Below are positions 3,227 through 59,239 of a DNA stretch of 64,000 nucleotides, piece by piece (the stretch's first letter is position 1; the number at the start of each line of letters is the position of its first letter). The stretch covers positions 1 to 64,000 of the IMG/VR virus record IMGVR_UViG_3300035670_000130; one strand, written 5' to 3'. Source of the stretch: a virus. Below the pieces are notes generated by a model. It ran no database searches. It had not been told where the DNA came from and was given only the letters and a program-made list of their open reading frames with translations. Position numbers and translations under genes: made by a program.

Positions 3227-4425
3227 GGTGTTGGTAATCCTGATGTATCTTGTTGACAGTAAACAATAGTGCCATCAGCAGGGATAGGGCTATAGGGATT
3301 GGGAAGACTGGACGTATCCTGTTGACAGTAGAGAACAGTTCCATCGGCAGGAATAGGACTATAGGGATTGGGGAGGCTGGACGTATCTTGGGCACAATAC
3401 GTTATTGGCTGTACATAAAAGTCACTAGCATCCTGTGGGCAATATCCAGTATCCGTCTGTGTACTGGTAACAATCGTAAAGTCAATATTAAAGAAATTAG
3501 AGGTATTCTGCGGGCAGTAATTGGTGTCAACCTGTTTCTGATCCTGATTCCCAATTGCATAATCGGGAATAGTTTGTGGACAGTAGCTGCTGTCGGTTCC
3601 ACTGTAAACAATAGTGAAATTAATTGCGTAATCAGGTACGACCTGTGGACAGTAGTACAACCAGTTGGGATCTGGGATGATAGTGTAATCAGGTAAAACC
3701 TGTTGACAGTAGTAAGGCCAATCAACCTCAACTCTCCGTGCTGGGCCATTCGGATAAATGTCTTCCCATTTGCCAGTGACAATAATTTTGTAGTCAAGAT
3801 TAGTGAATTGGTTAACTGCACGACCTCGGTTTAACCCGAAGAATGCCTGTGCCCATTGACCTCCACGACCATAGGCATCTAAAACCTGGATTTTACACAT
3901 CAACCCATTCTTAATAGCCTTTCGTACCGCCGCATAACCTGGGTCGGTATGAACCCATGCGCCACTAGCTGTTCCACTTGCCGTAATACCGGACACACGA
4001 CCTGCGATTTTCCTATTAGAAAAACCCTGATCAGAGAAAAAGTTCATCGCATTGTCGGCATTGACGACCTTTGCGGAGAACAACGGGATCGGGGTGTCCA
4101 GTGTGCATCTACTGCCAGGATAAATACCAGCGGTGGAAGGGAGAATGGGAATTGTCGTCTCCCCAGGTTCCACTACGTCAGCTAAAAATACAGAGAGTGG
4201 ATTTGCTTCAGTCCCAAAATTAAGCCTGGTGCCCTCATAAAGCCGGTAGGTAGAACCAGACTGGAGGATAATCTCTTCATCGCCAGGCTGGACAAACCAG
4301 TCCAAGACGAGCGTTTCTGAAGGGATAGGGCTACCAAACCGATATGGTTCCGACAGGAAAACCTTGGTCTGCTGACCAATGTTGTACCTGCTGGTATCAT
4401 TCAGTTCGGAGTATTGCCTAGACAT
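3223..4425 (-). CDS. Tail tube-like structural protein, long paralog with C-terminal YC(P/Q)Q repeat extension
   Basis: 400-aa ORF. The N-terminal ~230 aa are clearly homologous to the 4435-5133 product (MSRQ...RYNIGQQTK.FLSEPYR.G...LNFGTE...SGAW..DPG.A...AIK.G..CKIQVLD..GRGGQ). The C-terminal ~170 aa carry about 9 YCPQ/YCQQ/YCAQ units. The tube-like assignment is inference. Confidence 0.65.
   Translation of the reverse strand: MSRQYSELNDTSRYNIGQQTKVFLSEPYRFGSPIPSETLVLDWFVQPGDEEIILQSGSTYRLYEGTRLNFGTEANPLSVFLADVVEPGETTIPILPSTAGIYPGSRCTLDTPIPLFSAKVVNADNAMNFFSDQGFSNRKIAGRVSGITASGTASGAWVHTDPGYAAVRKAIKNGLMCKIQVLDAYGRGGQWAQAFFGLNRGRAVNQFTNLDYKIIVTGKWEDIYPNGPARRVEVDWPYYCQQVLPDYTIIPDPNWLYYCPQVVPDYAINFTIVYSGTDSSYCPQTIPDYAIGNQDQKQVDTNYCPQNTSNFFNIDFTIVTSTQTDTGYCPQDASDFYVQPITYCAQDTSSLPNPYSPIPADGTVLYCQQDTSSLPNPYSPIPADGTIVYCQQDTSGLPTP
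3251..3388 (-). repeat. 69-bp tandem repeat (2 near-identical copies plus degenerate copies upstream) inside the 3223-4425 CDS
   Basis: tgttgacagt recurs at 3251 and 3320, with tgggcacaat at 3389. Each unit encodes YCQQDTSSLPNPYSPIPADGT(V/I)(L/V). Confidence 0.9.
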
Positions 4426-4434
4426 TAATTACCC

Positions 4435-5133
4435 CTAGATGTCTTGAAGCGGATTAGGCTTGTATGTCTTCCAAGATCCGGTCACGATTATATTGTAAGC
4501 GACCTGGGTGAATTGATTTTGCGTCCGAGTCTTATTGGATCCAAAAAACACGCTGGCATATTGACCACCTCTGCCAAAGGGATCCAAAACCTGGATTTTG
4601 CATAGGTAGCCAATTTTGATTGCCCTTTGAACAATAGCGTGACCAGGGTCGTCTTTAATCCAGGCACCACTACTAGAACCCTTTGCTTCAATACCAGGAA
4701 TAGCACCAGCGGTGTAGTACATGGCACTAAAGTTTTGATCGTTGAACATCGTCGGACTGTTGTCAGTCTCGAACACCTTAGCCGAAAACAACGGATAGGG
4801 TGTGTCCAGAATAGCCGTAGCATTATCTGGAGCATCGCAAGTGGACTTGTTGATATTGATTACCGTGTCGCCGGGATCTGCTAGTCCAGCAACAATAACG
4901 GTAGCCGGGTCGTCCTCGGTTCCAAAGTTCAATCTAGTACCTTCATGCAATGTTTTGGCTGAAGGGGTACTGAGTGTAATAGTCTCATCGCCAAAGACGA
5001 TAGGCGCATCTAAAACTAAGGTTTCAAAAACAGGGCTTTTGCCGTAACGGTATGGTTCCGAGAGGAAGATTTTGGTCTGTTGACCGATGTTATAACGAGC
5101 AGTATTAGAGAGTTTAGTGAACTGTCTGGACAT
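4435..5133 (-). CDS. Tail tube-like structural protein, short paralog
   Basis: The ORF track starts at 5163. I prefer the ATG at 5133 (MSRQFTKL...), which has GGAGGC 5 nt upstream and aligns with the start of the paralog MSRQYSEL. Confidence 0.65.
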   Translation of the reverse strand: MSRQFTKLSNTARYNIGQQTKIFLSEPYRYGKSPVFETLVLDAPIVFGDETITLSTPSAKTLHEGTRLNFGTEDDPATVIVAGLADPGDTVININKSTCDAPDNATAILDTPYPLFSAKVFETDNSPTMFNDQNFSAMYYTAGAIPGIEAKGSSSGAWIKDDPGHAIVQRAIKIGYLCKIQVLDPFGRGGQYASVFFGSNKTRTQNQFTQVAYNIIVTGSWKTYKPNPLQDI

Positions 5134-5144
5134 GGTAGCCTCCG

Positions 5145-8100
5145 TTAAATAATTCCACCACAAGAAATAGACATGGCATTTTCATTATCAGTTATTTCTT
5201 GAGTCGTAAGCACACGATCCCAGATCGCTACTTTGCCAATATTTCCCCGAAAATTCCATGTTGATGATGTTACCGTTTGTGGGCCTATTGCCAACGGAAA
5301 CGTAGAGGGTTGAGTAATTCCACTGCCAGACTGAGAAGTGGTCAGCGACTGTAAAACTCCGTCGATCCTAACCTTTTGCCTATCAGTATTAATAACTTCG
5401 GCTTGATCTACAATTACTGTAATAATATTTCCTGTCGTGTCACTTAGGATCAACGTCGGAGTTGACTGCCTTAATCGATCAGTTGTTGTTCCTGTTCCGG
5501 TAGATACGTCTATTCCCCCGCTGTTGCCCCTAATGTAAATACCACCCTCGGTAGTAGAAGACGGATCGCCTTTAGATAACAAGTCGCCTATTGGATACTG
5601 TGAATTAACAGGGCCGACTGCGATCATGATTGTATATTGAGCCGATGCCCCAGAAAAGACATCGTCTAATATGTCGCCAAAACTCAGTCCGTTTCTGTTT
5701 GCATAAACAAACTTAAACGACGGAGTGTTATTTAATTCCGTCAACGTATGCAACAAGTTTTGCTGGGAATCGGTTGTGTAATTAATCGTACTTCCAGGAG
5801 CGGTAAATGGAGCAACAACGGTCGCCCCTTGGGTTCCTGAATATTGCGCCGCATCCAAAAATGCAACAAGCCCACTTCCGGTTGGGGTATAAATACCACC
5901 CAAGACAGTAAACGTGCCAGCAGCAACATCTCCAACCGGATAAGGCGGAGATGTATTGCCAACAACAGTAATCGTTCCCGTACTGGCACCAGTAGGAATA
6001 GTTGCAGTAATCTCGGTATCGCTAACAACAGTAAAGTTCGTCAAGTTTATAGTGCCAATTTTTACCCCTGTTGCATTAGTCGTAAAGTTAGTACCAGTAA
6101 TCGTAATAGAGGTGAGGGAATAACCTGTATTTGGGCTAAGTCCAGACACCGTCATAACAGAAGCATTAACCGTAAATGTTCCTGCGTTTACATTTGCCGG
6201 TGGAACAGAATATGAAGTGTTACCAAGCACTGTCAATGTCCCAGTCTCGGTATTAGATGGAACCGTGGCCGTAATTTGACTACTGGAAACAATAGTGAAA
6301 TTGGTCAGCGCAACCGCTCCAATCGTGACCCCCATCGCATAATTAAGCCCTGTACCATTAATGGTAATAGAAGTAGACTGTCCGTAGGTGTGTGATGTCG
6401 GAGTAAAGTCACTAACCGTCATAACAGGAGCATTGACACTAAACACCCCAGCTACAACATCATCCGGTGTAGACGGCAACCCTGTATCTCCCAAAACAGT
6501 AAGATTACCGGTAACTGCATTAGCTGGAACAGTGGCGGTTACATGGGTGCTGGAGACAACGGTAAAGTCAGTTAAAGCAATAGCTCCAATCGTGACCCCC
6601 ATGGCATAATTCAATCCGGTTCCGTAGATATTGACGGTAGTGGTCTGTCCAGAGGTGTGGAATGTCGGGTTGTAACTAGTTACAGTCATCTCAGGAACAC
6701 CAAAGGTAAAAGTTCCTGCGTTGATGTCACTAGCTGGATTCGGCAACTGATCGTTAGCCAGAATGATAATATCGCCTGTCCCAGCTAAATAAGACACCCT
6801 TGCCGTGACCTGAGTTGGCGAGACGATGACGTAATTGGTCAGGAAGTAATTATTTATTCTCGCCCCTTCCGACTTGTCTAGGTTAGTGCCGGTAATGACC
6901 ACGTCTTGAGATTGTCCAACTACTCCAAAATTGGGAACGATACTTGTTACCGTCATGACTGGAGCGACCACTAGGTCAGGCGACGAGTCAATGGTGCGCC
7001 CCCATCCCCTGCCAACAGTAGCGTTCATCTGATAAACCGTAACGTTAACATCCTCCTGGACAACTCCGAAATCCATGATCTGCCTTGTGGCAGTATAGTT
7101 AACAAAATTCTGATTGGAGGTAAGCGTTCCACCGCCGAGAATAGCAACCTCATATTGCTCTGAAGTCTCACTCATTGGCAATCCAGTGAACGCACTGGCG
7201 TACCCAGATCGTCGATCTCTCCGCACCCAGGAAATAGTCATGTCCCCATCTTGATTTTTCACCACTTCTACACTGGCTGGTGAGTAAGGTTTGTTGCAAT
7301 AAAAAGCAAGCTGGGGAATCGTATAGTAATCGGTAATAGAAGACTCTATTGCCCCAGTGCCAACAGCTTTAAACCGAATCTCCCTACCAAGATCATTTGG
7401 GAGCATATCTACCCGCAGAAGTGGACTAGACAGGCAAACAACGTCACTATCAATAGCATGACTACCCATAGCCCACTCCGTCCCACGAACACCCCGACGG
7501 AGGTAACTAATGGTATAAGTCCCCTCTCCGGTCAGCGTGGCATCTCTGGCCATAATAAACTCGTCTCCAACCAGGAAGAGAAGACCCCTGTTGTCATCAA
7601 ATTTTTGCTGGGTAACCGAAGATAGCTGACCATTTACCCCATAGACAACAAAACTCTGGGATGTCTGCAAGCTCGACAACCCAGACACGTCCATAGGCGG
7701 TGGAGCAGTACCAAGCTTACCAACAACAGTAGAACCGGACACACCACCTACCGAGTCGTAACTAGCACCTCCATCACGACTCATGACAATAGTGCCACCC
7801 CGCCAGCCCTCACTGCCAACTACAGCCACATATACGGAATTGTCGGGATCCGTATCGTTGATCAAATGAATGTCAAGTGGGATAAGGGTTGCCGTTCCAG
7901 GCGTTCTAACGACAGGCGGGGCATAAGATGTCGCAATTTCGGTAACAGGCACTGGGGCTGCGTTTAAATCTGGGAAAGAGGGAATGATGGACGGATCTGG
8001 TGGCGGAGGGACTAATGCCATTGTGCTTGTACAAACACCTTTAACCACAACACGGTAGTCATTTGCAATTAAGACTTCGGTCAACCTATAAACACGACAG

Positions 8101-51812: not shown

Positions 51813-51838
51813 AGACAGGGATCCCCCTGTCTTTTTTT
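51813..51838 (+). terminator. Rho-independent terminator
   Basis: AGACAGGG-atcc-CCCTGTCT followed by TTTTTT. Confidence 0.75.
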
Positions 51839-51860
51839 GTCCCCTCTCCCCTCTTCAGTC

Positions 51861-54746
51861 ATGAATACAGAATTGATTGCGGCATTATCAGTCTTGCATA
51901 AGTACCTACCGGAAGCGTGGCTGATCCCATGCGACAATAAAAAAAGACCGGCGGGAAACCACCTTGGAGCAAACGAGCGTCATATAACTCCAGATGCGCT
52001 CAGAAAAGCCCTAAAGTCCGAAAGCCTTGAACTTCCCTGCTGGTATGACTACACAACTAAGGACAAGAAAATTGTTAAGGATGTGTCTGAGCATGTGTCA
52101 GGGTATAAACTACTAACCGGGAAGGTGTTCACTTATCGGTGCCAGCAGGTGGTACTTGTGGCCGTTGATCTAGACGGTGAATCGGCAGATGATGAGTTGA
52201 AAAAAATCCTAAATGGAGAGGATTTGCCGAGAACAGTTTCTTGGTCATCCGGGAAGCCTGGTCGGAGGACTCACCTCTTCTATCTTCCCGAACAGAAGTC
52301 AAAAAATATTCAAAGCAAATTCTCCGTTGGAAAACTAGAGATAATCGCAGGATGGCCGGGGGTCGTAGTTCCGCCATCAGCCCACCCGGAAACTGGTAAG
52401 TATGTCTTTCTGGATGGTTGCAGTTTTGAGGACGTGGCAATTGGCGAGCTACCGAGCAGTATTTTCTCTAAACTTGCGACTGTTCCACGATTCAAATCCC
52501 TTGACGAAATCCCCATCCCGACAGAATCAAGTGTTCCGTTAATTGAATGCTGTAGCCGAGAGGTACGAGGTCTCGTCTCCACTGGAGTGCCCGAAGGTTC
52601 TGGGCACAATGACGCAGCCCTCCGTGTTGCACTAGAATTGGTCGGAGTTGAGCGTTATCTACAGCAGATTGGACAACCCTACGACTCAAATGCCGACGAT
52701 CTTTTCCGTGATTTTTTAGTAGCTTCCTCTGTTAACGAAAACCGACGATCCCTTGAGCGACTGGAATGGGCGCACAAGAAAAATTACATAGAACCGAGTT
52801 GCAAGCCCGAAGGGGTAAACAATTGCATCAGGGGATGGTATTGGACAAACGTCCTCAGGCAACCTGGAGCAATACTCAAGCAGGGAAACCTAAATCTAAT
52901 AACACCACAGATGAGAGAGGACATTTGGAGTGAGTTGACTAACATCCACAGCGGCAATATGCAGGCAAAGGATGTGGAGATTAAACTTACTTCTATATGC
53001 GAAAGGTATAACCTGGACATCAAACAAGTTGATCGATTATACAGAAAAGTAGAAAATGAAATAAACGCAAAGACAGAAGACGAATTAGCGAAAGAAGATT
53101 TTTTTCAATACATAAAAATCAAGTCCACCAAGCTTGATATATCTAAAATACTTCCACCATCTTTGGCTGATGACCTAAAGCTAAATGCTAAGTCAAAATA
53201 TCATCCCGTCAGGTGTTTAGCATACATTTGGCCGGCTGTTGCCACACTAACAGGAGCAAAGGTGAAAGTCTGGGCTAACAAGCCATCGGGCTGGTCAAGT
53301 GATCTCGTCTTTTACTGCGTTGATATTGGACGCAAAGGGTCAGGAAAAACACCAGCGGGGAAGGACACTCTGCATTACATATTTGAGCGGGATCGTCAGT
53401 CCCGTGCAGACTGGGAGCGAGAGGAGTCACACCTTGCTCAAATGAGAGCCAGGTGGGATGCGATGACTTCTCACGAAAAAAGCGCAGCCGCTGAAAACGC
53501 TGAACTTAATCCTGCACTCTACGAACAACAAATGACCCCGGAGAGGAAATACAAGTTTGACTCTCCTACGGTGCCAGCGGTCGTAAAATACCTCGGACTA
53601 CAGCCTAAGTGGCATAGCGGAATACTGTATAACGATGAACTGGCTAGTCTATTCGCAGGTTTTAATCAGTTCACAAAGGGAGGGAATGATCGACAGTTCT
53701 GGCTTGAATTTTTCAATGGACGTTCATGGAAGGTTCTCGAACGGGTAACGGATACGCCAGGGACTTGCCGACGACTGAATGGACAATTAATGCAAGTCGT
53801 CGGTGGGATGCAGTTAGATGCGTTCAAGAAATATCTTGCACTCTCCACCAGCCAGGATGGCTTAACAGATCGTTTTTTGATTAGTGATCCGCCGGAGATA
53901 GCTCCTCCTACCGAATTACCGAAATCAGGGACTGGCAGTTCAGCAATCCTGGAAAAAATCTATCGCCTAATTGAGCGGATCGAATTACGACTGGACGACA
54001 ATGGCGATCCTTTGCCAACAATGATTGACTGGGAACCAGATGCGGCTGGCTACTGGGAGCAATGCTACCTCGGACTCAATGACCTATCCTACCGATTACG
54101 GAAAGAGAACTGCGACTTTGCGGGATATTGCTCGAAGCTAATAACCTATTTCCCCCGCCTCGCTGGTGCCCTTTCTCTAATCTGGCAGGCTTCTGAGCTT
54201 GGAGAAGAAGATTTTTTGATTCCGTCCAATATACCACTGCATATTGCAGAAAAGACATGGGATCTAATTAAATACTACGCTTGTCAATACCTGGCTATTC
54301 AACACAGCGGAGATGAAGCCAGGGAGCCGATCCTGTCAGAAATCTGGGACATTGTGGAAGCAGAAGGGTCAATAACGCCACGCACTGTAGTCCACCGGTT
54401 TGGTCGTCGCAAAATAAACGACAAAAAGATGGACACTAAAACCGCAATTAAATTACTGCATCAACTTGAAGAATCTGGCTTTGGGGCTATAGAGATGTCC
54501 AGGACATCGATCAAGCTGATATTCAAAGCACCAGCGGAAGAGTTGTTCAAAGAAAATCTGTTTAAGCTCAAGCCAGCATCAAAGACTCCAGGCATTGCCG
54601 ATATAGTAAGACTTAATGGGGCTAGCAATATACCCGATGGCTTACTCGGAGTCATTGGAATCGTCAACGGAGATGGCACGTATGTGGTCGCTACCGAACT
54701 CGGCGATCTTGTCGTTAATTCTACTCAATTCAGCATACAGTCTTAA
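51861..54746 (+). CDS. Bifunctional primase-polymerase (AEP) fused to a P-loop helicase (DUF3987/D5-like)
   Basis: ATG 51861. AEP motifs are LVAVDLDGES, PGRRTHLFY and VVPPSAHPETGKYVF. Walker A is DIGRKGSGKT. YNDELASLF is a DUF3987-like block. Confidence 0.8.
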   Translation: MNTELIAALSVLHKYLPEAWLIPCDNKKRPAGNHLGANERHITPDALRKALKSESLELPCWYDYTTKDKKIVKDVSEHVSGYKLLTGKVFTYRCQQVVLVAVDLDGESADDELKKILNGEDLPRTVSWSSGKPGRRTHLFYLPEQKSKNIQSKFSVGKLEIIAGWPGVVVPPSAHPETGKYVFLDGCSFEDVAIGELPSSIFSKLATVPRFKSLDEIPIPTESSVPLIECCSREVRGLVSTGVPEGSGHNDAALRVALELVGVERYLQQIGQPYDSNADDLFRDFLVASSVNENRRSLERLEWAHKKNYIEPSCKPEGVNNCIRGWYWTNVLRQPGAILKQGNLNLITPQMREDIWSELTNIHSGNMQAKDVEIKLTSICERYNLDIKQVDRLYRKVENEINAKTEDELAKEDFFQYIKIKSTKLDISKILPPSLADDLKLNAKSKYHPVRCLAYIWPAVATLTGAKVKVWANKPSGWSSDLVFYCVDIGRKGSGKTPAGKDTLHYIFERDRQSRADWEREESHLAQMRARWDAMTSHEKSAAAENAELNPALYEQQMTPERKYKFDSPTVPAVVKYLGLQPKWHSGILYNDELASLFAGFNQFTKGGNDRQFWLEFFNGRSWKVLERVTDTPGTCRRLNGQLMQVVGGMQLDAFKKYLALSTSQDGLTDRFLISDPPEIAPPTELPKSGTGSSAILEKIYRLIERIELRLDDNGDPLPTMIDWEPDAAGYWEQCYLGLNDLSYRLRKENCDFAGYCSKLITYFPRLAGALSLIWQASELGEEDFLIPSNIPLHIAEKTWDLIKYYACQYLAIQHSGDEAREPILSEIWDIVEAEGSITPRTVVHRFGRRKINDKKMDTKTAIKLLHQLEESGFGAIEMSRTSIKLIFKAPAEELFKENLFKLKPASKTPGIADIVRLNGASNIPDGLLGVIGIVNGDGTYVVATELGDLVVNSTQFSIQS

Positions 54747-55426: not shown

Positions 55427-57364
55427 GTGACAACCGCAATAGTAACAAAACCCGGAATACCGAGTTTACTTAATAAAAAGCTGGATTCGATAGAGTTGCG
55501 ACCAGCACAAAAGCAATTCAAAAAGCAGATTTACGATCAGATCCGGGATGGACATCGGCGGATTCTTGCCGTAGCTCCCTGCGGGTTTGGCAAAACAGTC
55601 ATCAGCGCAAGTCTGGTTTATGACATGACAATTCGGCGAGACTACAAAGTTCTATTCTTGGTTCATGCCAAGTGTCTTGTAGAGCAAACATTGGAAGCAT
55701 TTGCCAGTTATGGTATCTGGGCTGGGGCGATTGCGGGCGGAATGGCTGAACATCGAACCAAGTCGGTTCAAGTTGCGATGATTCAAACCCTGCGTGGTCG
55801 TCGTGACGTAAGTTGGTTTAAGCCCGATTTTGTGATTGCAGACGAGTGCCACGAAACGCTTTGGGATAACTGGTCATTATCCCAGTTCCCTCGACTAAAG
55901 GATGGACTGGAGATTCACTCAGTTCATGCCCTCGACCAAGAGTTACGTGTTTTGGGTGTCGATGTTGACAAGCTTGCGCTAGAGGGGGGTGGTCGCTATC
56001 CGAGCTTCGAGGAAGTTCGTTCCATTCACCGGGAAGCCTCCAAACGGTATCACCCGGATCTGACCGGCGGAGACTCAACCATGCAAAAGCAAATCAATGC
56101 AGCATGGGATGTCATCAGGCAGCACAAAGACCTATTTGAGAGTGATAGGCCAGACAAGACCCCTCTCCTGATTGGACTAACTGCAACTCCCTGGAGGCTG
56201 TCTAAGCGACAGTCCATGGGCGACATATTTCCAGTTCAGGTACTGGGGCCAACACCGGCAGAACAAATTGAAGCTGGCAATCTAGTGCCATTTGTTTATT
56301 GGCGGATTACCGGTGCGAGTACAAAGCAAATTCGTATTACAGCAGGAGATTTTAATGAAGCGGATCTTGGTCAAGCGTTTGCTGTCCCTGAAGTTGTTCA
56401 ATGTGCGGTTGACAATTACCTCAGTAAGGCTAAGGGTCGTCGCTTTGCGTGTTTTCCGACAACGGTTCGACATGCTCAGTTGTTGGTTCATGCTTTTGAC
56501 CAAGCCGGAGTAAAATGCGCATTGATAACTGGCGAAACATCCAATAAACGAAGGCAGCAAATCTACCAAGAGGTACGAGACAATCACCTCGCTGGTATTG
56601 TTTCCGTCGGGTGCATTGGAATTGGTTTTAATTTACCAGAAATCAGTTGTGTTATCGACTGCTGTCCAACCCTTTCCAGAAACCGCTACGTCCAAGCCGC
56701 TGGTCGTGGACAACGACTTGCTCCGTGGATCGGCAAAGAAGACTGCATTTATCTTGATCAAGCTGGGAATGTAGAACGACATGGCATGATCGAAAGCCTC
56801 ACCTATGGAAGCCTACAGGAATCAGACGATTCTCCCGTTGGGGTAGCTCCAGTCAAGGAATGCCCGGAATGTGGACATATTCTACTTGCTACACAGATGG
56901 AATGTGTAGTGTGTGGATACGAATTTCCTCCACCTAAAAAAGAGATGTCTGTCGGAGACATGGTGCTACTGGTTCGTAGCGATGAACTAGACCTTTTTCA
57001 CGCTTTTCAGGGAAAACTAAGAGAAGCATACCAGCGGAGAAAAAAACCCCTTTGGGCGGCCGCAGAAGTTGCCAGAGTCCACAAGAGTCATCCTAGGGTA
57101 TCCAGTCGAGAAAAAAAAGGCTGGTATCCGAAAAAAGAATGGTACTATCACGCAATCTTTCCAAACCCTGTCAAGGCAGACACACAAGCTTATATGCAAT
57201 ATTTGATAGAAGCAACCGCCAACGATCTTGAACCCAAAAAGCAATGGTGGTACGACGGCTTCATGAACAAGGAATTCGGAGACGATTGGCGTAATTTGCC
57301 CGAAGGTGAACCATCAATTGCGCCTAAACAGCAAAGCCCACTACTACCAAAATACGAGTTTTAA
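55427..57364 (+). CDS. SF2 (DEAD/DEAH-like) helicase with an internal J-domain and a C-terminal zinc ribbon
   Basis: GTG start with AGGAG SD. Motif I is APCGFGKT, motif II is IADECHE and motif III is LTATPWR. ELRVLGVDV...EEVRSIHREASKRYHPDLTGGD...QINAAWDVI is inserted between motifs II and III. The zinc ribbon is CPECGH...CVVCGY. Confidence 0.85.
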   Translation: MTTAIVTKPGIPSLLNKKLDSIELRPAQKQFKKQIYDQIRDGHRRILAVAPCGFGKTVISASLVYDMTIRRDYKVLFLVHAKCLVEQTLEAFASYGIWAGAIAGGMAEHRTKSVQVAMIQTLRGRRDVSWFKPDFVIADECHETLWDNWSLSQFPRLKDGLEIHSVHALDQELRVLGVDVDKLALEGGGRYPSFEEVRSIHREASKRYHPDLTGGDSTMQKQINAAWDVIRQHKDLFESDRPDKTPLLIGLTATPWRLSKRQSMGDIFPVQVLGPTPAEQIEAGNLVPFVYWRITGASTKQIRITAGDFNEADLGQAFAVPEVVQCAVDNYLSKAKGRRFACFPTTVRHAQLLVHAFDQAGVKCALITGETSNKRRQQIYQEVRDNHLAGIVSVGCIGIGFNLPEISCVIDCCPTLSRNRYVQAAGRGQRLAPWIGKEDCIYLDQAGNVERHGMIESLTYGSLQESDDSPVGVAPVKECPECGHILLATQMECVVCGYEFPPPKKEMSVGDMVLLVRSDELDLFHAFQGKLREAYQRRKKPLWAAAEVARVHKSHPRVSSREKKGWYPKKEWYYHAIFPNPVKADTQAYMQYLIEATANDLEPKKQWWYDGFMNKEFGDDWRNLPEGEPSIAPKQQSPLLPKYEF

Positions 57365-57365
57365 G

Positions 57366-58460
57366 ATGTCATTAACTTTTACCGAATCTCTTCCAATCCA
57401 GACATCAGTTTCCTTTCCGGGCAACAGGATTTTAATCGATGCCCTGGGAAGGGAGCAGAGAGTAGTTCCCCATCAATCTCCAGTTAGAGAGTATGTGATT
57501 GAAAAACAGACCCTAACACCCGTGGAAGCCAACTCAATTCAACAAGTCTTTGAATCGACAAAAGGGGGTCGTTATTACTTCTTCTACACAGACAAGAGTG
57601 ACTATATCGCCACCCACGCAGAAAGACACGTTGGCGGCACAGCCTACACCCAGGGGTTGGTCGTCTACAGCAATGGCTTCCATATCCTAACAAAACGCTA
57701 CTCATGGGCGGGAGGACATCATTTCCGCATTATCGGAGCCGCAAGAAATATCACTATCTACGATTACACCAACAACAATGCCATAATGGGCAACTGGGGC
57801 TATCAATACCACACTGGACTTGTCACCGGACTACCCGGAGAACACTGGTATCTAGCCGACTTTGAATTCGATGTTCCAGTTCGGTTCGCAGAAGATACTG
57901 TTGATTTGATCGTTAAAACCAAGCAGGTCTACCCTCTTTACTCAAGCCAGATAAAGTTAATTGAACAGAAATTGTCGTGGCCGACCGTATTTAATGACAC
58001 GTTCCAGGATTACTACGGGCAAGAGCTTTTAGTTGATATGCTGTTTAATTCAACTATCACGAGAAAGTTTAACACTGTCGTCTTGGATCTATCGAGTGGT
58101 TTTACGAAAACAGATAGCTATCAGCCAACCGCTATCAGTGAAGTTACTTTAGGCGAAAGGCAGGCGTTATCATCCGACAATTTAGAGTACCTTTTGTGCC
58201 TTTGGTTGAATGTCAAGGGAAGCGGGGCATTCTGGCTATTTCGAGATGTATCGACCATCAACAATCCAAATGGAAGCCCGGAGTGGGCAGCATTCCGGGA
58301 TAATGCACTTTCTTACACTTTGAAGTCGCCAGTCCCTAAACAGTATGCTGTATCTAGTTTAACGGCCAGGGTATTCTACGAAGGAATACACATTTCAGAC
58401 AAGTACGGGTGGAATGGGTCTGTTTTGACCTTGGCTGACTGTGTCTTTTTTCAGGTATAA
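57366..58460 (+). CDS. Distal tail protein, DUF2460 / GTA g12-like N-terminal half
   Basis: ATG 57366, 1 nt after the helicase stop. MSLTFTESLPIQTSVSFPG...GGRYYFFYTDKSDY...FEFDVPVRFAEDTVDL matches the TIGR02217/DUF2460 pattern (memory-based). Confidence 0.6.
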   Translation: MSLTFTESLPIQTSVSFPGNRILIDALGREQRVVPHQSPVREYVIEKQTLTPVEANSIQQVFESTKGGRYYFFYTDKSDYIATHAERHVGGTAYTQGLVVYSNGFHILTKRYSWAGGHHFRIIGAARNITIYDYTNNNAIMGNWGYQYHTGLVTGLPGEHWYLADFEFDVPVRFAEDTVDLIVKTKQVYPLYSSQIKLIEQKLSWPTVFNDTFQDYYGQELLVDMLFNSTITRKFNTVVLDLSSGFTKTDSYQPTAISEVTLGERQALSSDNLEYLLCLWLNVKGSGAFWLFRDVSTINNPNGSPEWAAFRDNALSYTLKSPVPKQYAVSSLTARVFYEGIHISDKYGWNGSVLTLADCVFFQV

Positions 58461-58465
58461 ACAAC

Positions 58466-59239
58466 ATGTTTGCAACAACGTCCCATGATAGACCAATTGT
58501 AATCAACGGCTACTTTTGCAATCCCGGCGAGGCCGTTGAACTAAAAGCTATAGAAAGAAACTCCTCCCTTGATCCGAACAATGTCGAACTGTCTGGCTCA
58601 CAAAGCCTAATTAATCAAAACACCATATTAACGCACCGACTTGCTTACAAGGACATCTATACGCTAAAAGGCATAAACTGGAGGAATCCTCCGTCGAATA
58701 TGGACGATCACCCTATCCAGTGGAGGCAATATGGAACATCTGGAGAGACCTCCATTCGTGGCACAATTGGGTGGACGATTCAAGAGCAGTCAATGTCGGA
58801 AAGACGTTTGGCGCAAACCCCGAATAAGCTGACATCTCCAGTTTGTCGTCACTCCTTCTGTGACTCAGGTTGCCAACTAAACCTGGCTGACCATACCTTC
58901 GATCCGTTGATTATCACTGAAGTATTCAGTCAAGTATCCTTCCGGGTCAATTACGCACCGCCTGATTATAGTTATGGTTATGTGGTATTTATTGGCGAAC
59001 CAAATGCAAATGCTAGTTTTCCTATTACGTCTGGAACTGGCGGCATAATCGTTCTAGGAGACATGCCGGAGTGGAAGCTGGAGGTCGGACATACCCTAAG
59101 AGCGTACCGTGGTTGTTCCAAAACAATTGGTTACTGTCGTTCTGTTTACAATAACAGCATCAATTTTGGCGGAATCCCGCCAGAGGGAGACTGGATTCCT
59201 GGCAACAACAAATACCAAGCACCAGCGGTGCAAAGGTAA
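58466..59239 (+). CDS. Tail protein, DUF2163 / Phage_BR0599 (GTA g13-like)
   Basis: The C-terminus YRGCSKTIGYCRSVYNNSINFGGIPPEGDWIPG matches the BR0599 signature GCDK....C...F.N..NF.GFP.iPG. Confidence 0.65.
   Translation: MFATTSHDRPIVINGYFCNPGEAVELKAIERNSSLDPNNVELSGSQSLINQNTILTHRLAYKDIYTLKGINWRNPPSNMDDHPIQWRQYGTSGETSIRGTIGWTIQEQSMSERRLAQTPNKLTSPVCRHSFCDSGCQLNLADHTFDPLIITEVFSQVSFRVNYAPPDYSYGYVVFIGEPNANASFPITSGTGGIIVLGDMPEWKLEVGHTLRAYRGCSKTIGYCRSVYNNSINFGGIPPEGDWIPGNNKYQAPAVQR

What the first reader, a model, noticed from the sequence alone, without database searches (positions are those of the whole stretch)
55937..56125. J-domain (HPD motif) inserted inside an SF2 replicative-module helicase
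A roughly 60-aa segment lies between helicase motif II (IADECHE) and motif III (LTATPWR). It reads ELRVLGVDVDKL...SFEEVRSIHREASKRYHPDLTGGDSTMQKQINAAWDVIRQ. This follows the DnaJ J-domain consensus (LGV...eIkkaYrkla.kyHPD...ineAy.vL), including the invariant HPD.

An internal J-domain would let the helicase recruit host DnaK/Hsp70 directly. This is conceptually similar to the J-domain of polyomavirus large T antigen, or to the lambda P-DnaB-DnaK/DnaJ remodelling step. I am not aware that this architecture is characterised in phage SF2 helicases.
Basis: partly seen in the sequence, partly recalled or inferred. Interest (0 to 1): 0.62.

Follow-up and report, generated by a model that had tools for sequence, protein, structure and literature searches.

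The report
Chaperone-recruiting J-domain inside phage helicase
An uncultured temperate phage, probably of a cyanobacterium, has a RadD-like DNA helicase with a genuine J-domain (the module that switches on the Hsp70/DnaK chaperone) spliced into its ATPase core, a conserved layout I found in no paper I could search that probably brings the host chaperone to phage DNA transactions.

Summary
ORF 55427-57364 (+, 645 aa) is an SF2 helicase. Its spacer between motif II (DECH, aa 139-142) and motif III (LTATP, aa 251-255) is 106 aa, against 19-21 aa in insert-free relatives. About 72 aa of the insert (aa 166-237) is a J-domain, with HPD at aa 209-211.

- **Window's own score:** 21 bits against Pfam DnaJ, below the 27.8-bit cut-off.
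- **Family-level evidence is strong:** 14 of 15 orthologous inserts hit DnaJ (best E 1.2e-10). One relative passes the cut-off. The insert profile finds only J-domains in the PDB (E 1e-8) and matches E. coli DnaJ (hhalign 95.8%).
- **Structure:** AlphaFold gives the helix I-II-HPD-III-IV pattern, and the seven best Foldseek matches are J-domains.
- **Helicase identity:** RadD-like (Foldseek E 1e-19). It is probably an accessory enzyme, not the replicative helicase; the neighbouring Prim-Pol/DUF3987 protein is the likelier replicative one.
- **Distribution:** the internal J marks one well-supported clade of uncultured phages. A sister clade carries a C-terminal J instead.
- **Caveat:** HPD has been lost repeatedly, so DnaK coupling is not obligatory.
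- **Function:** recruitment of host DnaK is inferred, not shown.

This scan reported the same architecture earlier on other DNA (e1-3670287, e1-3273343). I rate it a new variant of a known kind.

The parts
55427..57364 (+). RadD-like SF2 helicase gene (645 aa, GTG start) carrying the internal J-domain
   Evidence: ORF. Pfam ResIII aa 22-146 (E 2.6e-20) and Helicase_C aa 328-430 (E 9e-15). phrog_16 'DNA helicase' E 4.9e-70. AF2 pLDDT 91.7. Foldseek top hits are E. coli RadD (7r7j, 6jde, 8h5y), E 1e-19. The N-terminus aligns with homologues.
55580..55597 (+). Motif I / Walker A (GFGKTV, aa 52-57)
   Evidence: G53, G55, K56 and T57 are nearly invariant in alignments A1 and A3.
55841..55852 (+). 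Motif II / Walker B (DECH, aa 139-142)
   Evidence: D139, E140 and H142 are invariant in 92 homologues.
55862..55921 (+). Linker part of the insert (aa 146-165: short helix plus two bridge residues)
   Evidence: Absent from insert-free relatives. AF2 secondary structure.
55922..56137 (+). J-domain (aa 166-237): helix I 166-175, extra short helix 180-185, helix II 194-207, HPD loop, helix III 217-232, short helix IV 234-237
   Evidence: Pfam DnaJ 21.3 bits. Insert profile against the PDB, E 1e-8. hhalign against E. coli DnaJ, 95.8%. AF2 in full-length context has block pLDDT of 84-97 over aa 161-240. The isolated model's seven best Foldseek hits are all J-domains, TM 0.5-0.67.
56051..56059 (+). 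HPD tripeptide (cac ccg gat, aa 209-211)
   Evidence: Read directly. H43, P44 and D45 are invariant columns in alignment A2, whose 15 inserts were chosen for carrying HPD.
56177..56191 (+). Motif III (LTATP, aa 251-255)
   Evidence: A253, T254 and P255 are invariant in 92 homologues.
56408..56716 (+). RecA2 lobe (Helicase_C, aa 328-430, with motif VI Q423..G426 R427..R430)
56855..56932 (+). Zinc ribbon (C479, C482, C493, C496)
   Evidence: Weak Pfam UPF0547 and Zn_Ribbon hits. The four Cys are invariant in 92 homologues. RadD also has a zinc-binding domain after RecA2 (my own knowledge of the RadD structure papers, not checked here).
56978..57277 (+). C-terminal helical domain (aa 518-617) shared with the whole family
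   Evidence: AF2 helices 518-617. Conserved ...EFG end in alignment A1. A sister clade attaches its J-domain after this domain.
51837..54746 (+). Prim-Pol / DUF3987 primase-helicase, the likely replicative enzyme of the module and a candidate client or partner
   Evidence: Pfam Prim-Pol E 3e-17 and DUF3987 E 2e-28. Synteny with the J-helicase is conserved in L002, L007, L009, L012, L017, L082, L083 and L089.

Best explanation
The gene encodes a RadD-like SF2 DNA translocase/helicase of a complete 79.6-kb temperate phage. A class-C (type III) J-domain has been inserted into a surface loop of its first RecA lobe, between Walker B and motif III.

**Shown:**
- The insert is a J-domain by sequence profile and predicted fold.
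- It carries an intact HPD. It keeps basic or aromatic helix-II residues (R198, H201, R202) at the positions of E. coli DnaJ R22, Y25 and K26.
- It is conserved as a domain across a phage clade.
- The phage encodes no Hsp70 of its own.

**Inferred:**
- The J-domain docks ATP-bound host DnaK and triggers its ATP hydrolysis next to the helicase.
- DnaK then clamps onto a protein at the site where the helicase works. Candidates are the neighbouring Prim-Pol/DUF3987 primase-helicase, the helicase itself during assembly, or SSB/RecA-type nucleoprotein complexes that RadD-type enzymes act on.

This would build into one polypeptide what lambda achieves with P-DnaB plus free DnaJ/DnaK, and what polyomavirus large T antigen achieves with its N-terminal J-domain.
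For: **J-domain identity**
- DnaJ is the only Pfam hit on the insert.
- all 28 PDB hits are J-domains.
- 14 of 15 orthologous inserts hit Pfam DnaJ, best E 1.2e-10.
- the insert of relative L009 scores 32.4 bits, above the cut-off.
- the insert profile finds 55 PDB chains, 52 of them annotated J-domain proteins; top hit E 1e-8.
- hhalign to E. coli DnaJ, 95.8%, covering helix I, helix II, HPD and helix III.
- AF2 helices in the J pattern, with high confidence in the full-length context.
- the top seven Foldseek hits are J-domains (probability 0.93-1.0; rmsd 1.7-2.7 A for Sis1 6d6x, Tim14 and the polyomavirus T J-domain).

**Constraint**
- HPD, N58 and W61 are invariant in 15 HPD-bearing inserts that are only 27-77% identical.
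- the J segment diverges at about the same rate as the C-terminal domain (for example P0009: core 53%, J 34%, C-terminus 36%).

**Recurrent helicase-J link**
- the internal J defines one clade (28 rows, SH-aLRT 100).
- a separate clade has the J-domain at the C-terminus.
- a search of 1.84 billion cluster representatives finds seven representatives of about 600 aa that carry the J match at the same internal position. Five are helicases from the first search and the other two were confirmed as helicases by Pfam.

**Partner must be the host's**
- no Hsp70 in the complete phage record.
- the helicase insert is the phage's only J-domain.

**Context**
- the gene lies in the replication module, downstream of Prim-Pol/DUF3987, and this synteny is conserved.

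**Precedent**
- PMC3486835: the phage J-protein Rki acts through host DnaK, and an HPD mutation abolishes this.
Against: - No experiment exists. There is no cultured phage with this architecture and no cultured host genome carrying it.
- The window's own J-domain is below Pfam's gathering score (21.3 against 27.8 bits), and Y25 is replaced by His.
- HPD has been lost several times. A 5-aa deletion removes it in an abundant shallow subclade (P0015, P0017-P0025, P0027-P0030, L003-L018, L090, L092). P0014 reads PPD, and P0040 and most C-terminal-J relatives are degenerate.
- Two of those HPD-less phage genomes (CheckV completeness 100% and 91%) have no other J-domain. The helicase therefore works without canonical DnaK stimulation in those lineages.
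- Foldseek E-values for the 78-aa model are not significant on their own (0.1-0.8).
- I could not inspect model coordinates, so exposure of the HPD face in the full-length protein is untested.
Confidence: 0.65

Rival explanations
1. The insert is a J-fold domain that no longer acts on Hsp70, or never needed to. It serves as a structural or interaction module of the helicase, for example contacting DNA, the Prim-Pol/DUF3987 protein or SSB. The HPD in this phage would be a not-yet-decayed relic.
For: - HPD is deleted or mutated in many relatives while helices I-III (ELxxLG, TFEE, INxAW) stay conserved.
- HPD-less phages with genomes of 100% and 91% estimated completeness carry no replacement J-protein.
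- The insert is modelled with high confidence in the full-length protein. This is compatible with fixed packing against the helicase, but that was not examined.
Against: - HPD is present in every HPD-bearing lineage down to about 27% insert identity, including the deeply separated P0167 and P0172.
- The HPD-deleted group is one shallow subclade with branch lengths of 0.01-0.03, so the loss looks recent.
- Helix-II residues at the DnaJ R22, Y25 and K26 positions are retained in the family consensus.
- An independent C-terminal J with intact HPD exists in three relatives.
Confidence: 0.2
2. The J-domain is a host-takeover or counter-defence device and does not serve the helicase's own reaction. 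It would titrate or redirect DnaK to reprogramme the host stress response, as Rki of phage RB43 does, or to blunt chaperone-dependent immune sensors. The helicase would merely be an abundant early-expressed carrier.
For: - Rki acts on DnaK to stabilise sigma32 (PMC3486835).
- By PMC13254874's summary of the Barriot et al. 2020 survey, 48 of 49 unique phage J-proteins have no other known domain, so stand-alone J modules are the norm.
Against: - The J-domain has been fixed to the same helicase family at least twice, at different positions. That argues for a link to this enzyme's function.
- A free small J-protein would do a titration job more cheaply.
- Insertion inside the ATPase lobe is a costly place for a mere passenger.
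Confidence: 0.1
3. Chance resemblance or assembly artefact: an HPD tripeptide in a helical linker, not a J-domain.
For: The window's own Pfam score is sub-threshold. Foldseek E-values for the small model are weak.
Against: Profile-level E-values of 1e-8 to 1e-10. Hits are essentially only J-domains. The architecture recurs on dozens of independent contigs.
Confidence: 0.03

Closest known systems
Polyomavirus large T antigen (J-domain + origin-binding domain + SF3 helicase)
   Same: A viral DNA helicase carries its own J-domain with HPD in one polypeptide, so the host Hsp70 is recruited by the replication protein itself. The insert profile's best PDB hit is the murine polyomavirus T-antigen J-domain (1FAF, E 1e-8), with a shared HPDxGGS...MQxxNxxW pattern.
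   Different: In T antigen the J-domain is N-terminal and the helicase is a hexameric SF3/AAA+ enzyme. Here the J-domain sits inside RecA lobe 1 of a RadD-like SF2 enzyme in a bacteriophage. Nothing beyond the J-domain is homologous. It is an analogue, not a member.
Rki (gp057w) of T4-like phage RB43, the first functional phage J-domain protein (PMC3486835)
   Same: A phage-encoded class C J-domain that depends on HPD and acts through the host's DnaK.
   Different: Rki is a stand-alone J-protein with an orphan C-terminal region. It stabilises sigma32 and is not fused to any DNA enzyme. By the summary in PMC13254874, 48 of the 49 unique phage J-proteins surveyed had no other known domain.
E. 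coli RadD (YejH), SF2 DNA-repair ATPase (PDB 6jde, 7r7j, 8h5y)
   Same: Best structural match of the whole protein (Foldseek E 1e-19, TM 0.40-0.48). Same order of RecA1, RecA2, zinc module and C-terminal domain, with a DExH motif.
   Different: About 21% identity. In this family, relatives without the insert have a 19-21-aa motif II-III spacer, and RadD has no J-domain to my knowledge (not checked here). RadD's known partners are SSB and RecA (PMC10238739, PMC8887467); no chaperone link is known.
Lambda O/P-DnaB pre-primosome remodelling by DnaK-DnaJ-GrpE
   Same: A phage replication step that needs Hsp70 to remodel a helicase complex. This is the mechanistic model for what an in-cis J-domain could do.
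   Different: Lambda uses the host's free DnaJ, the helicase is host DnaB (SF4), and no J-domain is encoded by the phage. That part rests on established knowledge and was not tested here.
RadD-like helicases with a C-terminal J-domain (P0097, P0101, P0111; degenerate in Cylindrospermopsis phage Cr-LKS4 gp36, WHL30602.1, and in a Leptolyngbya sp. BL-A-14 chromosome)
   Same: Same helicase family (27-28% identity overall; 33-35% over the ATPase core). Same kind of short HPD J-domain and the same tendency to lose HPD.
   Different: The J-domain is appended after the C-terminal domain, not inserted in RecA1. These proteins form a separate clade.
HMO-2011-type phage DNA polymerases with an inserted DnaJ central (CXXCXGXG zinc-finger) domain (PMC9038755, PMC8528129)
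   Same: A piece of the DnaJ co-chaperone inserted in the middle of a phage replication enzyme.
   Different: That insert is the zinc-finger client-binding domain of DnaJ, not the J-domain. It has no HPD and cannot stimulate DnaK.

Membership tests
J-domain (Pfam PF00226; class C / type III J-domain protein) | HPD tripeptide in the loop between helix II and helix III | tested here: met
   HPD at aa 209-211 (56051-56059), between AF2 helices 194-207 and 217-232. It is aligned in one column in the 15 HPD-bearing orthologous inserts.
J-domain (Pfam PF00226; class C / type III J-domain protein) | Four-helix J fold with an antiparallel helix II / helix III hairpin | tested here: met
   AF2 gives helices I-IV in order in the full-length model (block pLDDT 84-97 over aa 161-240) and in the isolated model (pLDDT 75.8). 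The seven best Foldseek PDB matches are all J-domains, TM 0.5-0.67, probability 0.93-1.0, although E is 0.1-0.8. There is an extra 9-aa loop with a short helix between helices I and II.
J-domain (Pfam PF00226; class C / type III J-domain protein) | Significant match to the DnaJ profile (Pfam gathering score 27.8 bits) | tested here: inconclusive
   The window's own insert scores 21.3-21.5 bits, E 2.5e-4, below the cut-off. Fourteen of 15 orthologous inserts hit DnaJ (best E 1.2e-10) and L009's insert scores 32.4 bits, above the cut-off. The family profile matches PDB J-domains at E 1e-8 and E. coli DnaJ at 95.8%.
J-domain (Pfam PF00226; class C / type III J-domain protein) | Basic/aromatic helix-II face that contacts Hsp70 (E. 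coli DnaJ R22, Y25, K26) | tested here: met
   The hhalign register puts R198 on R22, H201 on Y25, R202 on K26 and Y208 on Y32. The family consensus at these positions is K, Y, K. R27 is Glu here. Which residues matter in DnaJ comes from Genevaux et al. 2002, as cited in PMC3486835.
J-domain (Pfam PF00226; class C / type III J-domain protein) | HPD-dependent stimulation of Hsp70/DnaK ATPase | not testable with these tools
   Needs biochemistry or a domain-swap complementation assay.
RadD-like SF2 helicase (phrog_16; Pfam ResIII + Helicase_C) | SF2 motifs I, II (DExH), III (TAT) and VI (QxxGRxxR) in two RecA lobes | tested here: met
   G53/G55/K56/T57, D139/E140/H142, A253/T254/P255 (T252 nearly invariant) and Q423/G426/R427/R430 are invariant or nearly so in 92 homologues. 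Pfam ResIII and Helicase_C are above cut-off.
RadD-like SF2 helicase (phrog_16; Pfam ResIII + Helicase_C) | Zinc module after RecA2 plus a C-terminal helical domain; overall fold closest to RadD | tested here: met
   Four invariant Cys (479, 482, 493, 496). The eight best Foldseek hits are RadD chains, E 1e-19 to 4e-17.
RadD-like SF2 helicase (phrog_16; Pfam ResIII + Helicase_C) | SSB-stimulated ATPase and acceleration of RecA strand exchange | not testable with these tools
   Biochemical properties of E. coli RadD (PMC10238739, PMC8887467); unknown for the phage enzyme.
Polyomavirus large-T-antigen architecture | N-terminal J-domain followed by an origin-binding domain and an SF3 (AAA+) hexameric helicase | tested here: not met
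   The helicase is SF2 and RadD-like, and the J-domain is internal (aa 166-237). This is a functional analogy only.

The most novel reading that the evidence does not exclude
The enzyme is a chaperone-coupled DNA motor. Because the J-domain sits between Walker B and motif III, its presentation to DnaK could change with the ATPase cycle or with DNA binding. The translocating helicase would then fire host DnaK onto whatever protein it meets on DNA: a stalled primase-helicase, RecA or SSB filaments, or repressors. It would work as a targeted protein-stripping machine. Repeated J-domain capture by this helicase family, internally and at the C-terminus, would mark a general and so far unrecognised Hsp70-helicase partnership in phage DNA metabolism.
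Probability: 0.15. Interest if true: 0.85.

Novelty: new variant of a known kind. Interest (0 to 1): 0.62.

Why it matters
J-domains decide where Hsp70 works. Viral replication proteins that carry their own J-domain are so far represented by polyomavirus T antigens. In phages, the only characterised J-protein that the papers read here name (Rki) is a stand-alone factor.

This family puts a J-domain inside the motor core of a DNA helicase, in a defined clade of uncultured temperate phages whose nearest cellular relatives are cyanobacterial. A sister clade has captured a J-domain at a different position.

If the domain is active, it gives a compact one-protein system for asking how Hsp70 assists helicase loading, activation or roadblock removal. 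That question goes back to lambda replication. It would also extend the T-antigen principle to bacteria.

The natural series of HPD-intact, HPD-deleted and J-less orthologues is a ready-made comparative experiment. The motif II-III loop also emerges as a site in RadD-like helicases that tolerates insertions.

Tried and rejected
- **Word-based homologue search on the insert alone**: only 3 hits, not informative.
- **The search for related loci with the single protein**: nothing. The alignment query worked.
- **Loci matched from query residue 194**: these looked like further J-bearing helicases. They have only a 26-aa spacer and no HPD, so this is an alignment-extension artefact.
- **Foldseek with the whole model**: this identifies the helicase class but cannot report on the J-domain. 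No BFVD viral model matched the query well over its whole length.
- **AU test of a single origin for all internal J-domains including P0031**: not finished within the time limit. Re-alignment restarted it, so I report only that the best tree puts P0031 outside the main clade and that no strongly supported branch forces a second origin.
- **Barriot et al. 2020 (J Mol Biol), the survey of bacterial and phage J-proteins:** not held. I rely on its summary in PMC13254874. The supplement of PMC10410713 is not held. I therefore cannot exclude that the architecture is listed in a table somewhere.
- **Literature searches for J-domain/DnaJ + helicase + phage or cyanophage**: no description of this fusion.
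- **Intein remnant or other mobile insert:** considered and rejected. Real inteins in relatives sit in Walker A, not at this site.
- **Model coordinates:** not available in the Python box. I could not measure how the J-domain packs on RecA1 or whether HPD is exposed.
Full report
**1. The observation**

The window is the first 64 kb of a complete 79.6-kb IMG/VR virus record with direct terminal repeats. ORF 55427-57364 (+, GTG start, 645 aa) contains the quoted peptide. Coordinates 55937-56125 are aa 171-233 and the HPD codons are at 56051-56059.

Pfam places ResIII on aa 22-146 and Helicase_C on aa 328-430, with a weak zinc ribbon at aa 477-502. PHROGs gives phrog_16 'DNA helicase' at E 4.9e-70.

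Motif II (DECH) is at aa 139-142 and motif III (LTATP) at aa 251-255. The spacer between them is 106 aa. In about 70 relatives without an insert it is 19-21 aa. The insert is therefore about 85 aa, not about 60. It consists of a 20-aa linker and a J-like domain of about 72 aa.

**2. Is it a J-domain?**

*Sequence.*
- The window's own segment hits only Pfam DnaJ, at 21.3 bits (E 3e-4). That is under the 27.8-bit gathering score.
- All 28 PDB phmmer hits are J-domains.
- I aligned 15 HPD-bearing orthologous inserts (A2). HPD, N58 and W61 are invariant although identities to the window's insert are only 27-77%.
- Scanned one by one, 14 of 15 hit DnaJ, with best E 1.2e-10.
- The insert of relative L009 scores 32.4 bits, above the cut-off.
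- The A2 profile finds 55 PDB chains at E <= 0.01. 52 are annotated J-domain proteins and the other 3 have listed names that do not say so. The best is the murine polyomavirus T-antigen J-domain (1FAF, E 1e-8), followed by DNAJA1, CSP, Tim14 and Sis1.
- hhalign of A2 against E. coli DnaJ 1-76 gives 95.8% probability, E 7.8e-9. It spans helix I (xxLGV), helix II, HPD and helix III, with a 9-residue extra loop between helices I and II.
- In that register R198, H201, R202 and Y208 fall on DnaJ R22, Y25, K26 and Y32. The family consensus there is K, Y, K.

*Structure.*
- AlphaFold2 on a 92-sequence alignment gives pLDDT 91.7 and pTM 0.87. The insert is modelled confidently: 10-residue block means over aa 161-240 are 84-97.
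- Its helices are 166-175, 180-185, 194-207, the HPD turn, 217-232 and 234-237.
- A model of the insert alone, built on an alignment of window and locus translations, has pLDDT 75.8.
- Its seven best Foldseek matches in the PDB are all J-domains: Sis1, dnj-12, DNAJA1, Tim14 and the polyomavirus T antigen. TM-scores are 0.5-0.67 and probabilities 0.93-1.0. E-values are only 0.1-0.8, as expected for so small a helical domain.

I conclude with about 0.93 confidence that this is a true J-domain of the short 'HPDxGGS' class C type.

**3. The carrier protein and its context**

The whole model is closest to E. coli RadD. The eight top Foldseek hits are RadD chains, E 1e-19 to 4e-17. XPB, SauUSI and others follow. 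Four invariant cysteines form the zinc module, and a C-terminal helical domain follows.

The gene does lie in the replication module. However, the 969-aa Prim-Pol/DUF3987 protein upstream (51837-54746) is the likelier replicative primase-helicase, and a RadD-like enzyme is more probably an accessory translocase.

Other neighbours:
- a tyrosine-integrase-like gene (PHROGs integrase families only; no Pfam hit), a repressor-like gene and a methyltransferase upstream;
- DUF2460 and BR0599 tail genes immediately downstream.

The order Prim-Pol/DUF3987 ... helicase ... DUF2460/BR0599 is conserved on independent contigs of up to 90 kb. The phage encodes no Hsp70 and no second J-domain. Any partner must therefore be the host's DnaK.

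The host is probably a cyanobacterium. Apart from two phage-like contigs binned to a Crocinitomicaceae MAG, the 17 best-matching genome contigs (34-39% best-segment identity) are cyanobacterial, from Okeania, Lyngbya, Chroococcidiopsidaceae, Xenococcaceae, Gloeocapsa, Microcoleus, Waterburya and others. Weaker matches lie in many other phyla.

**4. Distribution and evolution**

*Internal J clade.* On a tree of the helicase core with the insert columns removed, all internal-J proteins but one form one clade of 28 rows with SH-aLRT 100. P0031 carries a more canonical J at the same site. It falls elsewhere in the best tree, but no well-supported branch forces a second origin. The AU test did not finish.

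*Rarity.* An exhaustive HMM search of 1.84 billion cluster representatives with the insert profile gave 8,666 J-domain hits. Among the best 150 listed, seven are proteins of about 600 aa with the J match at the same internal position: P0007, P0009, P0012, P0014, P0031, P0167 and P0172. The first five are helicases from the first search; the last two were confirmed as helicases by Pfam. P0167 and P0172 have HPDHGG and a GLTGSP variant of motif III.

*Sister clade.* A separate clade carries the J-domain at the C-terminus. HPD is intact in P0097, P0101 and P0111. It is degenerate in P0080, P0082, P0085, P0095, in gp36 of the isolated Cylindrospermopsis phage Cr-LKS4, and in a Leptolyngbya MAG chromosome. 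The helicase family has therefore acquired a J-domain at least twice at different positions. This is the best argument that the link is functional.

*Other inserts at the site.* Okeania relatives have a low-complexity filler at the same motif II-III site, so that loop tolerates insertions.

*Absences.*
- No isolated phage among 50,697 GenBank records has the internal-J form.
- No BFVD viral model matches the query well over its whole length.
- The only genome-contig hits of this form are two phage-like contigs binned to a Crocinitomicaceae MAG.

**5. The main caveat**

HPD is not universally kept.
- An abundant, very shallow subclade has a 5-aa deletion that removes it (LIHHPDHGG becomes LIH-----AES). 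The rest of the domain is intact.
- P0014 reads PPD and P0040 is degenerate.
- Two such phage genomes (CheckV completeness 100% and 91%) have no other J-domain.

Canonical DnaK stimulation is therefore dispensable in some lineages, or the domain has a second role. The J segment diverges at about the rate of the C-terminal domain and faster than the ATPase core. That is consistent with a constrained but adaptable domain.

**6. Mechanism**

*Shown:* a conserved, HPD-bearing J-domain is built into RecA lobe 1 of a RadD-like helicase in a phage that has no Hsp70 of its own.

*Inferred (about 0.65):* the domain recruits ATP-bound host DnaK and triggers hydrolysis at the helicase's site of action. 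DnaK would then remodel a partner or obstacle. Candidates are the Prim-Pol/DUF3987 complex, the helicase itself, or SSB/RecA nucleoprotein. The analogies are lambda P-DnaB release by DnaK/DnaJ/GrpE and the role of the T-antigen J-domain.

*Rivals:*
- a J-fold kept for structural or interaction reasons (0.2);
- a host-takeover or counter-defence role like Rki (0.1);
- chance or artefact (0.03).

**7. Novelty**

Searches of the held literature found no description of a J-domain fused to or inserted in an SF2 or RadD-like helicase. A 2026 review summarises the only phage-wide survey: 49 unique phage J-proteins, of which 48 are class C with no other known domain (PMC13254874). The original survey was not available.

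The known analogues are T antigen (J + SF3), Rki (a stand-alone J-protein) and the HMO-2011 polymerases, which carry a DnaJ zinc-finger insert and not a J-domain.

This scan has already reported the same architecture on other DNA. e1-3670287 describes an internal J in a RadD-like phage helicase. e1-3273343 describes a cyanophage RadD-like helicase with a J-domain. Those are AI notes, not independent evidence, but my tests here agree with them.

I class this as a new variant of a known kind, with interest 0.62.

Noticed in passing
Homologues P0010, P0040, P0067; loci L009:7785-10799 and L013:1-2697: Three relatives of this helicase carry an insert of roughly 340-390 residues with Pfam intein and homing-endonuclease domains (Hint, Hom_end), inserted exactly inside Walker A (GK | C...HN | T). 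P0010, L009 and L013 carry both the intein and an intact internal J-domain.
   Followed up: partly
Loci L003-L018, L090, L092; proteins P0015, P0017-P0025, P0027-P0030: An abundant, very shallow freshwater subclade has a clean 5-aa deletion that removes HPD from an otherwise intact J-domain. P0016, with HPD, sits among these sequences. Two such phage genomes (CheckV completeness 100% and 91%) have no other J-domain. This is a natural loss-of-function series.
   Followed up: partly
L001 (Cylindrospermopsis phage Cr-LKS4, OQ625504.1) 4019-5752; L126; L145 (Leptolyngbya sp. BL-A-14 chromosome): The helicase of an isolated cyanophage (gp36) and some cyanobacterial chromosome copies end in a degenerate J-like domain (WWDILEV... 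or WYETLGV...) without HPD. In Cr-LKS4 the helicase also sits directly beside tail-tip genes (M, I, J).
   Followed up: partly
window 57366-59239 and the same position in L002, L007, L009, L012, L082-L085, L089: The DUF2460 and BR0599 (GTA g12/g13-like) distal-tail genes follow the helicase on the same strand. The first ATG comes one base after the helicase stop. This junction of replication and tail genes is conserved across the phage lineage.
   Followed up: partly
L082:13648-17968 (-): A relative's tape-measure-like gene is called at 4,300 aa. It has weak protein-kinase/ABC1 hits and a faint glucosaminidase hit alongside TMP_3, which is unusually large and composite.
   Followed up: no
Proteins P0033, P0035, P0036 (Okeania MAGs): These helicases have a 57-91-aa spacer filled with low-complexity, non-J sequence at the same motif II-III site. 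The loop is a general hotspot for insertions.
   Followed up: no
L090, L092 (JBIPMW010000308.1, JBIPMW010000344.1): Contigs of 86 kb and 27 kb carrying the HPD-deleted helicase are binned into a Crocinitomicaceae (Bacteroidota) MAG from Lake Mendota. Either the phage contigs were mis-binned or that subclade's host is not a cyanobacterium.
   Followed up: no
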